Source: a virus. Taken from it: a DNA stretch of 64,000 bases. The number at the start of each line of letters is the position of its first letter. The first letter of the stretch is position 1. Shown in pieces: positions 3,089-49,612 of the stretch. The notes beneath the pieces were generated by a model. The model was not told the origin of the DNA. It searched no databases and saw only the letters and a list, made by a program, of their open reading frames with translations. The stretch is from positions 1 to 64,000 of the IMG/VR virus record IMGVR_UViG_3300015360_000024, one strand, 5' to 3'. The position numbers were made by a program, and so were the translations under genes.

Positions 3089-3313
3089 GCATGCGAAGCA
3101 ATCACCCACAGCGTGGCGAGATCGACCGTATCGCCAAGATGCTGATGGATGTCTGGGCAAAGGCCGAACCGGATCACGGCGTCACCAAATACCCCACTCC
3201 ATCTCGCAGTTGCTGTCGCCCGAGAGGTGGGACTACGGCCCCGCGCCAGCCAAGCCTCTCAAGGCGAAGGCCACCTAGACAATCGTCGATACAGGTGCGA
3301 TGGTCCTACGCGA

Positions 3314-44291: not shown

Positions 44292-44418
44292 TGGACCAAC
44301 CAGGAGTTGAACCTGGATCTCTCCCTTGCATGGGTAACCATTTCTCGGCCGGCTCGCTTGCGCGAACAATGGATTTAAAACGGGTTTTTTGAGCGTGCTG
44401 CCGTTGCACCATCGGTCC
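44292..44418 (-). ncRNA. tRNA-Y RNA chimera 3
   Basis: GGACCGA/UUGGUCC-A; insert with UUGUUCGC-GCAA-GCGAGC(C)GG and GGUUACC. Confidence 0.8.
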
Positions 44419-44534: not shown

Positions 44535-45716
44535 CTACTCTACGCCCGTCACCACTCCGGCCCCAACGGTCTTACCACCCTCACGGACGGCGAATCGAGT
44601 TCCCGGCTCCATTCCGACTGGCTTGTGCAGCTTGAACGTGATGGCTGCGTGCTCGCCGGGACGAATCATGTCGAGATCTCCAGTGCCCTCCACGGTCCCC
44701 GTGACGTCGGTCGTCCCGAAGAAGAACTGCGGCCGGTATCCCTTGAAGAACGGCGTGTGACGACCGCCCTCGTTCGTGGGAATGACGTACAGCTCTGCGT
44801 GGCCAATCGTGTGCGGCTTCACCGAGCCCGGAGCGATCAGAACCTGGCCACGAACGACCTCGTCCCTCTTCACTCCGCGCAGGAGGATTCCGCAGTTCTC
44901 ACCCGCCCGAGCCTCCTGCTGATCCTTGTGGAACATCTGGATGCCCGTAACAGCGACCTGGCGAGGCTTCTGGTCTTCGCCTTCAAGGCCGATGATCTCG
45001 ACCGTAGCGCCGAGGGCTAGAACGCCTCGGTCGATGCGTCCGGTGACCACGGTGCCACGACCTTCGATCGTGTGAACTCCCTCGATGGGCATCATGAACG
45101 GGGACGTGAAGTCACGGATCGGGTCCGGGAAGTGCTTGTCCATCGTCTCGACCAACTCCTTGATACACGCGACATCCGCGTGATCTTTGCCGTGCTCTCC
45201 GATGGCAGCCAGCGCCTTGAGGGCAGAGCCGCAGACCATCGGCGAGTCGAGGTACTTCTGAGCCTTGAGGAAGTCCGAGGTCTCCTCTTTGACCAGCTCC
45301 AGCAGCTCTGGATCCGCGACGTCCACCTTGTTGATGAACACCACGATGTGCGAGACGCCGACCTGACGAGCCAGAAGGATGTGCTCCTTGGTCTGCGGCT
45401 GAGGTCCCTGAGATCCGTCCACCAGGAGCACTGCGCCGTCCATCTGGGACGCGCCTGTGATCATGTTCTTGATGTAGTCGGCGTGCCCCGGGCAGTCGAT
45501 GTGCGCGTAGTGCCGAGTCTCTGACTCGTACTCGACGTGAGCGATGTTGATGGTGATACCTCTGGCCTTCTCCTCGGGGGCTGAGTCGATCTGATCGAAC
45601 TCGACTGCCTTCCCGCCTCGAATCTTTGCCATCACCTTGGTGATAGCGGCCGTCAGGGTGGTCTTGCCGTGATCGACATGACCGATGGTTCCTACGTTCA
45701 CATGCAACTTGCTCAT
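44535..45716 (-). CDS. tuf: elongation factor Tu (divergent)
   Basis: [51 protein letters not shown]. Confidence 0.97.
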
Positions 45717-47874: not shown

Positions 47875-47951
47875 TGACGAACAAGAAGTGCAGCTGAGCG
47901 TTTGGATCAGATTATTAGTCAGATTGATAACTCAACTACGACGGCTCGTCA
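47875..47951 (-). ncRNA. Y RNA-like a
   Basis: 5' UGACGAGC(C)G..GUAGUUGAGUUAUC ... CUCAGCUGC..UUGUUCGUCA 3'. Confidence 0.8.
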
Positions 47952-47959
47952 GAAAAAAC

Positions 47960-48019
47960 GGCGAACAAGGAGATGATCGTGGGGTCATTTTCAAGGTAAC
48001 CCATGATCTTCGGCTCGCC
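47960..48019 (-). ncRNA. Y RNA-like b
   Basis: 5' GGCGAGC(C)GAAGAUCAUGGGUUACC ... UUGUUCGCC followed by a U run. Confidence 0.85.
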
Positions 48020-49267: not shown

Positions 49268-49331
49268 CGCGAACAAGAAGATGAACCTGGGGGAAATCTT
49301 AAATGGATAACCCAAGCTCGAACGGCTCGCG
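49268..49331 (-). ncRNA. Y RNA-like c
   Basis: 5' CGCGAGC(C)G...UUGGGUUAUC ... UUGUUCGCG followed by a U run. Confidence 0.85.
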
Positions 49332-49340
49332 AAAAAGATA

Positions 49341-49466
49341 GACGAACATGGTGCGTGGTTGGACGTTGAGAGCGGATTCAAACCGCTACCTCCGGGGTTT
49401 TCAGCCCAGGCGCTCTCTCAGTTAAGCTACTCCGATGGTGCGGTAATCCAATCACTTCGGCTCGTC
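49341..49466 (-). ncRNA. Y RNA-like d enclosing a tRNA-Phe(GAA)-like domain
   Basis: Ends GACGAGC(C)GAAG / AUGUUCGUC; upper stem UUGGA/UCCAA; internal D arm, CU-GAA-AA loop, T arm AGCGG-UUUGAAU-CCGCU; acceptor only 3 bp. Confidence 0.75.
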
Positions 49467-49467
49467 T

Positions 49468-49543
49468 TGGCGACCCTACGGGGATTCGAACCCCGATTGA
49501 CCGACTGAGAATCGGCTCTCCTGGCCAGTTGGAGGATAGGGTC
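49468..49543 (-). tRNA. tRNA-Glu(CUC)
   Basis: Cloverleaf, CCA. Confidence 0.9.
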
Positions 49544-49547
49544 AAAA

Positions 49548-49612
49548 AGCGAACAATTTGGTGAAGCAGGGGTTTTTCAACCATTTGATAACCCTGCCTC
49601 GTCCGGCTCGCT
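49548..49612 (-). ncRNA. Y RNA-like e
   Basis: 5' AGCGAGC(C)GG..GCAGGGUUAUC ... CCCUGC..AUUGUUCGCU followed by a U run. Confidence 0.85.

What the first reader, a model, noticed from the sequence alone, without database searches (positions are those of the whole stretch)
49341..49466. Y RNA whose loop holds a whole tRNA-Phe-like domain with an intact GAA anticodon loop
Seen: a Ro helix from the ends (GACGAGC(C)GAAG / AUGUUCGUC), an upper stem UUGGA/UCCAA, a GAUUACC variant motif, then D arm, CU-GAA-AA loop and T arm in normal tRNA order, joined through a 3-bp remnant acceptor. Knowledge: as I recall, in YrlA the Ro stem replaces the anticodon arm and the acceptor is a closed hairpin. Here it replaces the acceptor end and the anticodon loop is exposed. 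Inference: a further fusion topology that could present an anticodon loop as bait for anticodon nucleases while bound to Ro60.
Basis: partly seen in the sequence, partly recalled or inferred. Interest (0 to 1): 0.82.

Follow-up and report, generated by a model that had tools for sequence, protein, structure and literature searches.

The report
Phage Y-like RNA carrying tRNA body
A large uncultivated phage that carries its own Ro60 protein encodes, inside its 44-gene tRNA cluster, a conserved 126-base RNA whose paired ends look like a Ro60 docking helix and whose middle folds like a tRNA with an anticodon-type loop but no amino-acid-accepting end; this layout differs from the bacterial Y RNA YrlA, and its function is untested.

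Summary
On the minus strand, 49466->49341, the RNA ends pair into a 7-bp helix followed by a bulged C and a G-U pair, then an upper stem and a UUACC motif. Inside lie a D arm, a 7-nt CUGAAAA loop on a 6-bp stem, and a T arm, in normal tRNA order, joined by a 3-bp acceptor stub. Rfam's tRNA model scores it 34 bits.

The RNA is conserved. I found seven distinct versions in related phage contigs, always directly after tRNA-Glu(CUC). All helices co-vary, as do two tertiary tRNA pairs: 15-48, and 19-56 in all four Watson-Crick forms. It is therefore a selected, L-shaped tRNA mimic, not a decayed tRNA.

The end helix is shared with at least seven other Y-like RNAs in the same array. The phage encodes a full Ro60, 124 kb away.

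The "tRNA-Phe" identity is not conserved: the anticodon position reads GAA in 3 versions and AGA in 4. The D/anticodon/T order was already modelled for Deinococcus Yrn1, so the topology differs from YrlA but has a precedent.

Best reading: a Y RNA paralog with a tRNA-shaped effector end. Ro60 binding and the nuclease-bait idea are untested.

Earlier notes of this scan describe related "Ro60 handle plus tRNA piece" RNAs in other phages, but not this RNA.

The parts
49341..49466 (-). Whole 126-nt Y-like/tRNA-like RNA (RNA position p = 49467 - coordinate)
   Evidence: Sequence. Model R1 finds seven distinct homologs in all, counting this copy. Pair counts are and RNAalifold.
49458..49466 (-). 5' strand of the lower helix, GACGAGC, then bulged C8 and G9. 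GCCGAAG (positions 6-12, running 3 nt past this part to 49455) fits the GNCGAAN0-1G motif of YrlA RNAs.
   Evidence: The motif is defined in Chen 2014. RCGAGCCG recurs 8 times on this strand at 43-50 kb.
49341..49348 (-). 3' strand of the lower helix, U119 + GUUCGUC
   Evidence: Pairs 1-126 to 7-120 and 9-119 are paired in 100% of cells. Two pairs change on both sides: A-U<->G-C and C-G<->U-A.
49447..49455 (-). Upper stem, 5' strand GUGAUUGGA (positions 12-20)
   Evidence: (helix 2, 92.9% paired, 2 pairs with change on both sides).
49355..49363 (-). Upper stem, 3' strand UCCAACCAC (positions 104-112)
49433..49446 (-). 5' linker UUACCGCACCAUCG. It begins with the UUAYC motif shared by all Y-like RNAs of the array. 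Its length varies between homologs.
49430..49432 (-). Acceptor-stem remnant, 5' strand GAG (positions 35-37)
   Evidence: Pairs with 97-99. The middle pair co-varies, A-U versus G-C.
49368..49370 (-). Acceptor-stem remnant, 3' strand CUC (positions 97-99)
49412..49427 (-). D arm: 4-bp stem with the 8-nt loop AACUGAGA (A14, A15, G18, A19)
49392..49410 (-). Anticodon-type arm: 6-bp stem with a U.C mismatch and the 7-nt loop CUGAAAA at 49398-49404
   Evidence: The loop is 7 nt with C32 and U33 in all seven versions. Positions 34-36 read GAA in 3 and AGA in 4.
49371..49387 (-). T arm: 5-bp stem with loop UUUGAAU (U54, U55, U56, A58)
   Evidence: Position 56 co-varies with D-loop position 19.
49468..49543 (-). 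tRNA-Glu(CUC) with encoded CCA, ending 1 nt before the RNA's first base. It is the conserved upstream neighbour.
49331..49340 (-). U-rich spacer UAUCUUUUUC after the 3' end. A similar U run follows the RNA in every homolog whose downstream flank I read.
   Evidence: The simple terminator scan does not call it.

Best explanation
This is a phage noncoding RNA of the Y RNA kind. It is transcribed within the tRNA array directly after tRNA-Glu(CUC). Its 5' and 3' ends pair into the same C-bulged helix (CGAGC-C-G / UGUUCG) that the phage's other Y-like RNAs carry. I infer that this helix is the docking site for the phage's own Ro60 ring protein.

The apical half is a tRNA-shaped module with a D arm, a 5-6-bp arm bearing a 7-nt U33-containing loop, and a T arm. 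The elbow contacts 8-14, 15-48, 18-55, 19-56 and 54-58 are all possible. The module hangs on a 3-5-bp acceptor stub, so it has no aminoacylatable end and cannot decode.

Most likely it works as characterised Y RNAs do. The helix holds Ro60, and the second module engages another factor or gates Ro60. Here that module offers the elbow and anticodon arm of a tRNA to a tRNA-recognising partner.

What is shown: the sequence, its conservation, the co-varying fold, paralogy of the helix, and a Ro60 gene in the genome. What is inferred: Ro60 binding, the mature ends, and the partner's identity.
For: Anatomy and conservation:
- The anatomy is read directly from the sequence.
- Seven distinct homologs occupy the same slot after tRNA-Glu(CUC) in contigs whose neighbouring 301-aa protein is 58-92% identical.
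- 97.4% of pair cells are standard pairs, against 37-51% for slid partners, and 9 pairs change on both sides.
- RNAalifold independently recovers the lower stem, upper stem and D, anticodon and T arms.

Tertiary pairs:
- 19-56 is A-U (3), G-C (2), C-G (1) and U-A (1).
- 15-48 is A-U (6) or G-C (1).
- U8, A14, G18, U55, U54 and A58 are invariant.
- By contrast, 37 of the window's 43 ARAGORN tRNAs have the canonical UUC T loop.

Link to Y RNAs and Ro60:
- The end helix recurs in four short Y-like RNAs and three tRNA bodies of the same array.
- Rfam's nematode sbRNA family, which I recall being Y RNA homologs, gives sub-threshold full-length hits to three of these RNAs, including this one.
- The phage encodes a 557-aa Ro60 with TROVE and vWA_Ro60 domains, E 4.5e-128 to D. 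radiodurans Rsr (2NVO) and about 1e-121 to human and Xenopus Ro60.
- The contig of homolog L223 also carries a Ro60, 80% identical.
- In a sister subclade the Ro60 gene sits inside the tRNA array with YrlA-type RNAs beside it.
- Published phage and bacterial Ro60 proteins bind such RNAs (PMC4201824, PMC12135203).
Against: - No binding, transcript-end or processing data exist.
- Ro60 lies about 124 kb away, not within 4 kb as for published YrlA RNAs.
- The related 175-kb record, estimated 80% complete, shows no TROVE gene.
- Rfam's Y_RNA and YrlA models do not hit this RNA, and the sbRNA hit is weak (18 bits, E 0.36).
- The CGAA part of the YrlA motif is replaced by CGUC in 5 of 7 homologs.
- The alignment used for pair counts was fitted to my structure, and the seven sequences are related.
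- A relative (L219) has only a short Y-like RNA in the same slot, so the tRNA body is dispensable there.
Confidence: 0.55

Rival explanations
1. Decoy or competitive inhibitor. The exposed anticodon-type loop draws host tRNA-cleaving defence nucleases away from real tRNAs, possibly while the RNA is held on Ro60.
For: - The anticodon arm keeps tRNA dimensions: a 7-nt loop with C32 and U33 in all seven versions. This would not be needed if only the elbow mattered.
- The RNA sits in a phage tRNA array.
- Hughes et al. 2020 raise competitive inhibition of an anticodon nuclease as a possible YrlA role (PMC7790460).
Against: - Positions 34/35 swap between GA and AG, and positions 37 and 38 vary among close relatives, so no single tRNA species is mimicked.
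- The stem has 6 bp rather than 5 in five of seven versions.
- From my own knowledge, I know of no Phe-specific anticodon nuclease.
- Nothing in the data links the RNA to a nuclease.
Confidence: 0.12
2. Ro60-independent element of the polycistronic tRNA transcript. The end-to-end helix is a processing or stability clamp, for example an RNase III or RNase E site or a protective stem, and the tRNA-like body recruits tRNA-processing enzymes to punctuate the operon.
For: - It lies 1 nt after the CCA of tRNA-Glu and is followed by a U-rich spacer, like every other unit of the array.
- Ro60 is far away, and one related record shows none.
Against: - The helix has the specific C-G / bulged C / G-U core and the UUAYC motif, kept across 8 paralogs with otherwise different sequence. 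A mere clamp would not need that.
- The same kind of helix occurs in environmental Y-like RNAs with unrelated cargo.
- The phage keeps a full Ro60.
Confidence: 0.18
3. Precursor of an unusual working tRNA. The end strands are removed, CCA is added, and a tRNA with a short acceptor stem decodes Phe or Ser codons.
For: - ARAGORN calls the L044 homolog 'tRNA-Ser(AGA)', and Rfam's tRNA model passes its threshold on this copy.
- M. smegmatis YrlA is cut by RNase P and receives CCA (Chen 2014).
Against: - The acceptor stub is only 3-5 bp, with no discriminator or CCA in register.
- The anticodon flips between GAA and AGA.
- G19-C56 is replaced by other pairs.
- Co-variation of the end helix shows the ends are selected to pair.
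- The phage already has a normal tRNA-Phe.
Confidence: 0.05
4. Decaying tRNA pseudogene that happens to lie between two halves of Y-like repeats.
For: The array is full of Y-like half-sites and tRNAs. A relative has a short Y-like RNA in the same slot.
Against: Double-sided changes that keep the pairs occur in every helix but the D stem, and in two tertiary pairs, across seven versions.
Confidence: 0.03

Closest known systems
D. radiodurans Yrn1 (Y RNA bound by Rsr; Chen et al. 2014, PMC4201824)
   Same: - The Ro60-binding helix is formed by the RNA's own 5' and 3' ends, and both strands are recognisable.
- The inner module is modelled in tRNA order, with an anticodon-like arm between D-like features and a T arm.
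- The phage Ro60 is closest to Rsr among solved structures.
   Different: - Yrn1 has no full D arm, a 6-nt loop and no variable region.
- This RNA has a complete D arm, a 7-nt U33 loop, a variable region and all the elbow pairs, and it passes Rfam's tRNA threshold.
- Sequence homology to Yrn1 was not tested.
YrlA (Rfam RF02553; S. Typhimurium, M. smegmatis, mycobacteriophages; structure PDB 6CU1)
   Same: - It is a Y RNA with a tRNA-mimicking effector module stabilised by tRNA tertiary contacts, and it is also known from phages.
- This copy carries a GNCGAAN0-1G match.
   Different: - YrlA is circularly permuted (T arm, closed acceptor hairpin, D arm), and the Ro stem replaces the anticodon arm, so it lacks an anticodon loop. 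Here the Ro-type stem replaces the acceptor end and the anticodon-type loop is kept.
- RF02553 gives no hit here.
- This RNA is not next to Ro60.
Metazoan Y RNAs and nematode stem-bulge RNAs (RF00019, RF01656)
   Same: - A terminal helix with a bulged C next to a G-U pair, an upper stem, a UUAUC-like motif at the start of the loop, and a U run after the 3' end.
- RF01656 gives full-length sub-threshold hits to this RNA (18 bits) and two paralogs (32 and 26 bits).
   Different: - The scores are below gathering and RF00019 gives no hit.
- To my knowledge, no metazoan Y RNA has been shown to carry a tRNA cloverleaf in its loop.
Thermus phage phiLo Yrl1/Yrl2 with phiRo60 (PMC12135203)
   Same: Phage-encoded Ro60 with phage-encoded Y-like RNAs. 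They form complexes with host PNPase in vitro.
   Different: - Those RNAs lie just upstream of the Ro60 gene.
- The passages I read do not describe them as tRNA-like.
- phiLo Ro60 is only distantly related to this phage's Ro60 (E 8e-7).
Canonical tRNA (RF00005)
   Same: D, anticodon and T arms in order, a 7-nt loop with U33, and the tertiary pairs 8-14, 15-48, 18-55, 19-56 and 54-58.
   Different: - There is no 7-bp acceptor stem and no free NCCA end.
- The anticodon stem is 6 bp in most versions.
- Pair 19-56 is not fixed as G-C.
- It is embedded in a 50-nt helix formed by the flanks.

Membership tests
Y RNA (Ro60-associated ncRNA, general) | 5' and 3' ends pair into a long stem containing a conserved bulged helix | tested here: met
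   7 bp + bulged C + G-U, then an upper stem. The helix pairs are 100% and 93% paired, with double-sided changes.
Y RNA (Ro60-associated ncRNA, general) | Bound and stabilised by Ro60 | not testable with these tools
   No RNA-protein assay or RNA-protein complex predictor was available.
Y RNA (Ro60-associated ncRNA, general) | A Ro60 ortholog is encoded by the same genome | tested here: met
   TROVE + vWA_Ro60 ORF at G000:C1:173450-175123. The contig of homolog L223 also has one. The 80%-complete relative G001 shows none.
Y RNA (Ro60-associated ncRNA, general) | Encoded close to Ro60 (within about 4 kb, same strand, in Chen 2014) | tested here: not met
   It lies about 124 kb from the Ro60 gene. 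In the sister subclade Ro60 does sit in the array, but that subclade lacks this RNA.
YrlA (RF02553) | Match to the Rfam covariance model at or above 69 bits | tested here: not met
   No hit at the locus even at E <= 10.
YrlA (RF02553) | GNCGAAN0-1G motif in the 5' strand | tested here: inconclusive
   GCCGAAG is present in this copy and in L223. It is GCCGUCG in the other five versions.
YrlA (RF02553) | Permuted tRNA-like domain: T arm 5' of D arm, closed acceptor hairpin, no anticodon loop | tested here: not met
   The order here is D, anticodon arm, T, with an open acceptor stub. The YrlA layout is described.
Yrn1-type Y RNA (Deinococcus) | Ro helix from the ends enclosing D-like, anticodon-like and T elements in tRNA order | tested here: met
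   The architecture matches the description in Chen 2014.
Yrn1-type Y RNA (Deinococcus) | Sequence or profile homology to Yrn1 | not tested
   No Yrn1 sequence or model was at hand, and no Rfam family of that kind hit the locus.
tRNA (RF00005) | Covariance-model score at or above 29 bits | tested here: met
   34 bits, but only model positions 5-66.
tRNA (RF00005) | 7-bp acceptor stem with a free 3' end for CCA and aminoacylation | tested here: not met
   The stub is 3 bp here (3-5 bp in homologs) and continues into linkers and the Y-type helix. ARAGORN does not call this copy.

The most novel reading that the evidence does not exclude
The phage runs a Ro60-centred system of tRNA mimics that display the two ends of a tRNA separately. 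The three tRNA bodies at 43-44 kb carry free acceptor ends and the Ro-type helix on the anticodon side. This RNA shows the anticodon arm and carries the Ro-type helix on the acceptor side. In this reading, this RNA is a Ro60-held bait or sensor for host anticodon-loop nucleases, which would couple tRNA attack to Ro60-dependent RNA handling during infection.
Probability: 0.12. Interest if true: 0.85.

Novelty: new variant of a known kind. Interest (0 to 1): 0.6.

Why it matters
Y RNAs with tRNA-like modules are known, but what those modules do is still open. This RNA is a naturally occurring Y-type RNA that keeps almost a whole tRNA, including an anticodon-type loop, and lacks only the acceptor end. 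In the same phage it sits beside the opposite design, tRNA bodies whose anticodon loop is replaced by the Ro-type helix.

That pair of designs makes a direct test possible: which face of a tRNA does the Ro60 particle need to present? The free variation of the elbow pair 19-56 through all four Watson-Crick forms suggests that shape, not sequence, is selected there.

It also matters for annotation. ARAGORN calls one homolog tRNA-Ser(AGA), so such RNAs can inflate phage tRNA counts.

Tried and rejected
- **First pattern scan.** GAGCCGAAGNNNNNGGATTACC in viral contigs gave four hits, all of which look like chance matches in coding sequence.
- **14-15-mer scans.** These gave over 170 mostly chance hits. 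Only the two related records carried both motifs.
- **Cultured phages and E. coli.** A blastn search of the 501-nt region against cultured-phage records found nothing. The 65-nt tRNA core found nothing in E. coli genomes. My recollection that the body resembles tRNA-Ala therefore stays unverified and is not used.
- **EF-Tu as a probe.** It fetched 30 large viral contigs, but none had this RNA. Their best model hits are ordinary tRNAs.
- **Origin of the tRNA body.** It is not a recent copy of any of the phage's 43 tRNAs, and tRNA-Phe is not among the ten best matches.
- **RNA-repair partners.** RtcB, Rnl2-type RNA ligase and CCA-adding enzyme families were not found in the phage genome. An RNA-repair context could not be confirmed with these families.
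- **Promoter and terminator scan.** It found nothing around the locus.
- **TROVE search in other homolog contigs.** It could not be run because those records are not held.
- **Expression.** One metatranscriptome run holds a 230-nt contig covering 49340-49452 at about 95% identity and running on into the next Y-like RNA. The tool warns that DNA can be present in such libraries and that contigs show no ends, so this is at most a weak hint of expression.
- **Alternative pairing.** RNAalifold proposed UACC paired with GGUA. I reject it because the G-to-A change in two versions breaks that pair but is compensated in the acceptor stub.

Full report
**Where it lies.** The window is the first 64 kb of a 193,958-bp uncultivated virus record, estimated 91% complete. 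It holds 44 ARAGORN tRNA genes, all on the minus strand, together with a phage EF-Tu, a release-factor gene and an SRP RNA. The finding lies on the minus strand and reads 5'->3' from 49466 to 49341.

- Positions 1-7 (GACGAGC) pair with 120-126 (GUUCGUC). C8 is bulged and G9 pairs with U119.
- GUG(A)UUGGA (12-20) pairs with UCCAA(C)CAC (104-112).
- G19-C25 reads GAUUACC.
- After a 14-nt linker come a 3-bp acceptor stub (35-37 with 97-99) and then U8 and A9.
- The tRNA-like part has a 4-bp D stem with an 8-nt loop, G26, a 6-bp stem with one U.C mismatch and the 7-nt loop CUGAAAA, a 4-nt variable region, and a 5-bp T stem with loop UUUGAAU.
- Rfam's tRNA model matches 49368-49432 at 34 bits over model positions 5-66, above its gathering score of 29.
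- ARAGORN does not call it.
- The single-sequence folding energy is unremarkable (z -1.33).

**It is one of a family of helices in this array.** RCGAGCCG occurs eight times on the minus strand between 43 and 50 kb, each time matched by UGUUCG(C/U). Reading these copies gives three kinds:
- Four short RNAs in the same strand order: 47951-47875, 48019-47960, 49331-49268 and 49612-49548.
- Three tRNA bodies in which the helix is capped by GCAA and stands in place of the anticodon loop: 43364-43233, 44275-44145 and 44418-44292.
- The present RNA.

All share the C-G / bulged C / G-U core and a GG(G/A)UUAYC motif after the upper stem. Rfam's nematode stem-bulge RNA family, which I recall being Y RNA homologs, gives full-length sub-threshold hits to two short copies (31.8 and 25.6 bits) and to this RNA (18.2 bits). 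Rfam's YrlA model does not hit it. The RNA is flanked by two of the short copies, with tRNA-Glu(CUC)+CCA ending one base before its 5' end.

**Ro60.** The phage encodes a 557-aa protein with TROVE and Ro60-vWA domains at 173450-175123. Its matches to solved structures are E 4.5e-128 to D. radiodurans Rsr and about 1e-121 to human and Xenopus Ro60. It lies about 124 kb from the RNA.

**Homologs.**
- The 301-aa protein encoded 3.3 kb upstream has 59 relatives. I fetched DNA around eleven of them and found two related viral records.
- A covariance model made from this one sequence and my structure found full-length matches of 57-87 bits in L223, L245, L218 (=L225), L044 (=L220, L229, L242), L235 and L221.
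- The next hits, at 36 bits or less, are ordinary tRNAs.
- That makes seven distinct versions, counting this one, from several samples. In each, the flank I read ends in a tRNA 3' end directly before the RNA (tRNA-Glu(CUC) where tRNAs were scanned), and a U run and another short Y-like RNA follow wherever I read the downstream flank.
- A relative at 83% (L219) has a 64-nt Y-like RNA without a tRNA body in that slot.
- A sister subclade (L222, L224, L246, L247) lacks this RNA. It has the Ro60 gene inside the array, and in the two loci I scanned (L222, L246) YrlA-type matches of 45-56 bits lie beside it.
- The contig of L223 carries a Ro60 that is 80% identical to ours.
- The 175-kb record of L044, 80% complete, shows no TROVE gene. 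That could be the missing fifth.

**Co-variation.**
- On the model-fitted alignment A5, 97.4% of pair cells are standard pairs, against 37-51% when the 3' partners are slid by 1-3 columns.
- Nine pairs change on both sides, which 0 of 500 shuffles reach.
- Every helix except the D stem has at least one such pair.
- The lower helix switches between GACGAGC/GUUCGUC and GGUGAGC/GCUCACC.
- RNAalifold recovers the lower stem, upper stem and D, anticodon and T arms on its own.
- Its alternative for the acceptor stub is contradicted by the A-U/G-C switch at 36-98.
- Caveats: the alignment leans towards my structure, and seven related sequences are few.

**Tertiary pairs.**
- D-loop position 19 and T-loop position 56 form A-U in three versions, G-C in two, C-G in one and U-A in one.
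- The Levitt pair 15-48 is A-U in six versions and G-C in one.
- U8, A14, G18, U55, U54 and A58 never vary.
- Of 420 ways to deal the seven observed position-56 letters among the sequences, one gives seven Watson-Crick pairs. This is my own count and ignores relatedness.
- In contrast, 37 of the window's 43 tRNAs have the canonical UUC T loop and 41 have GG in the D region.
- The module is therefore selected to keep the tRNA elbow, but is free of whatever fixes G19-C56 in working tRNAs.

**The anticodon-type loop.** It is always 7 nt and always begins with CU. The seven versions read CUGAAAA, CUGAAAC (two), CUAGAAA, CUAGAAC (two) and CUAGAGA. The anticodon position is thus GAA in three and AGA in four. 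The stem has 6 bp in five versions and 5 bp in two. The body is not close to the phage's tRNA-Phe or to any other of its tRNAs. 'tRNA-Phe-like' is therefore a property of this copy's loop only.

**Comparison with the literature.**
- Chen et al. 2014 (PMC4201824) model D. radiodurans Yrn1 the other way round. It has an anticodon-like arm (5-bp stem, 6-nt loop), no full D arm and no variable region. They state that the arm order relative to the ends differs between Yrn1 and YrlA. The present topology therefore has a precedent, but here the tRNA is nearly complete.
- Phage Ro60 with Y-like RNAs is known from mycobacteriophages and other phages, and from Thermus phage phiLo, where the RNAs and Ro60 assemble with host PNPase (PMC12135203).
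- Hughes et al. (PMC7790460) float competitive inhibition of an anticodon nuclease as a possible YrlA role.
- In four full-text searches I found no paper describing a Y-type helix enclosing a D/anticodon/T cloverleaf in a phage tRNA array.

**Mechanism.** I commit to a Y RNA paralog. The end helix docks the phage Ro60, and the tRNA-shaped module is the effector end, presenting the elbow and anticodon arm to a tRNA-recognising partner or gating Ro60 (confidence 0.55).

The rivals are:
- a Ro60-independent processing or stability element (0.18);
- a nuclease decoy (0.12);
- a precursor of an odd working tRNA (0.05);
- a pseudogene (0.03).

No Ro60 binding, mature ends or partner have been shown. 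One metatranscriptome contig covers most of the RNA at about 95% identity, but it cannot prove transcription.

**Verdict.** This is a new variant of a known kind: a Y RNA with a tRNA mimic. Earlier notes of this scan describe related 'Ro60 handle plus tRNA piece' RNAs in other phages. They are unchecked by me, and none is this RNA.

Noticed in passing
window 47875-47951, 47960-48019, 49268-49331, 49548-49612 (minus strand): Four short (60-77 nt) Y-like RNAs with the same C-bulged end helix, a GGGUUAYC motif and U runs. Two give sub-threshold hits to Rfam's nematode sbRNA family (31.8 and 25.6 bits).
   Followed up: partly
window 43233-43364, 44145-44275, 44292-44418 (minus strand): Three tRNA bodies with full acceptor, D and T arms. 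Their anticodon loop is replaced by the same Y-type helix closed by a GCAA loop. Two are called tRNA with a long insert by Rfam (41.7 and 40.8 bits). This is the reverse design of the RNA studied here.
   Followed up: partly
L222:16289-18639; L246:7233-9767 and 3106-3240; L224:17604-19259; L247:20340-20900: In a sister subclade of these phages the Ro60 gene, followed in three of the four loci (not seen in L247, where the locus ends) by a KTSC-domain gene, sits inside the tRNA array. In the two loci scanned (L222, L246), YrlA-type RNAs of 45-56 bits, below Rfam's 69-bit gathering score, lie beside it. That subclade lacks the RNA studied here.
   Followed up: partly
L219:15175-15238: In a relative at 83% identity of the neighbouring protein, the slot after tRNA-Glu(CUC) holds a 64-nt Y-like RNA without any tRNA body. 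The tRNA module has therefore been gained or lost within a Y-like frame.
   Followed up: partly
L243:6246-6350, L239:149-362, L231 (around 2735 on the minus strand), L241:1113-1200: Metagenome contigs carry RNAs with the same 5' half (GAGCCGNNGURAUUKGRUUAYC) and a matching 3' strand but unrelated cargo, one with about 200 nt. This suggests a wider, undescribed class of Y-like RNAs.
   Followed up: no
L044:13788-13861: ARAGORN annotates the homolog of this RNA as tRNA-Ser(AGA). Such mimics can be miscounted as tRNA genes in phage annotations.
   Followed up: yes
window 49330/49468 (run X20): A low-depth contig from an RNA library joins the downstream short Y-like RNA to tRNA-Glu with only 75 letters between, ending in a type-B 3' strand (..GUCACAAAUUUUUGCUCACC). 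It is either a relative with a short version of the RNA or an assembly artefact.
   Followed up: no
window 49435-49442 and 49348-49355 (RNA positions 25-32 and 112-119): The 8-nt direct repeat CGCACCAU occurs in the 5' linker and again in the 3' internal loop. It is not conserved in the homologs, so it is probably chance.
   Followed up: yes
window 38823-38900 (minus strand): ARAGORN reports a tRNA with a four-base anticodon (taag). Rfam's tRNA model scores it 33.5 bits.
   Followed up: no
window 44535-45716 (minus strand) and 43126-43208 (minus strand): The phage encodes a full EF-Tu with three Pfam domains (E 4e-61). It also encodes a small SRP RNA at 42 bits, just above Rfam's gathering score, inside the tRNA array.
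   Followed up: no
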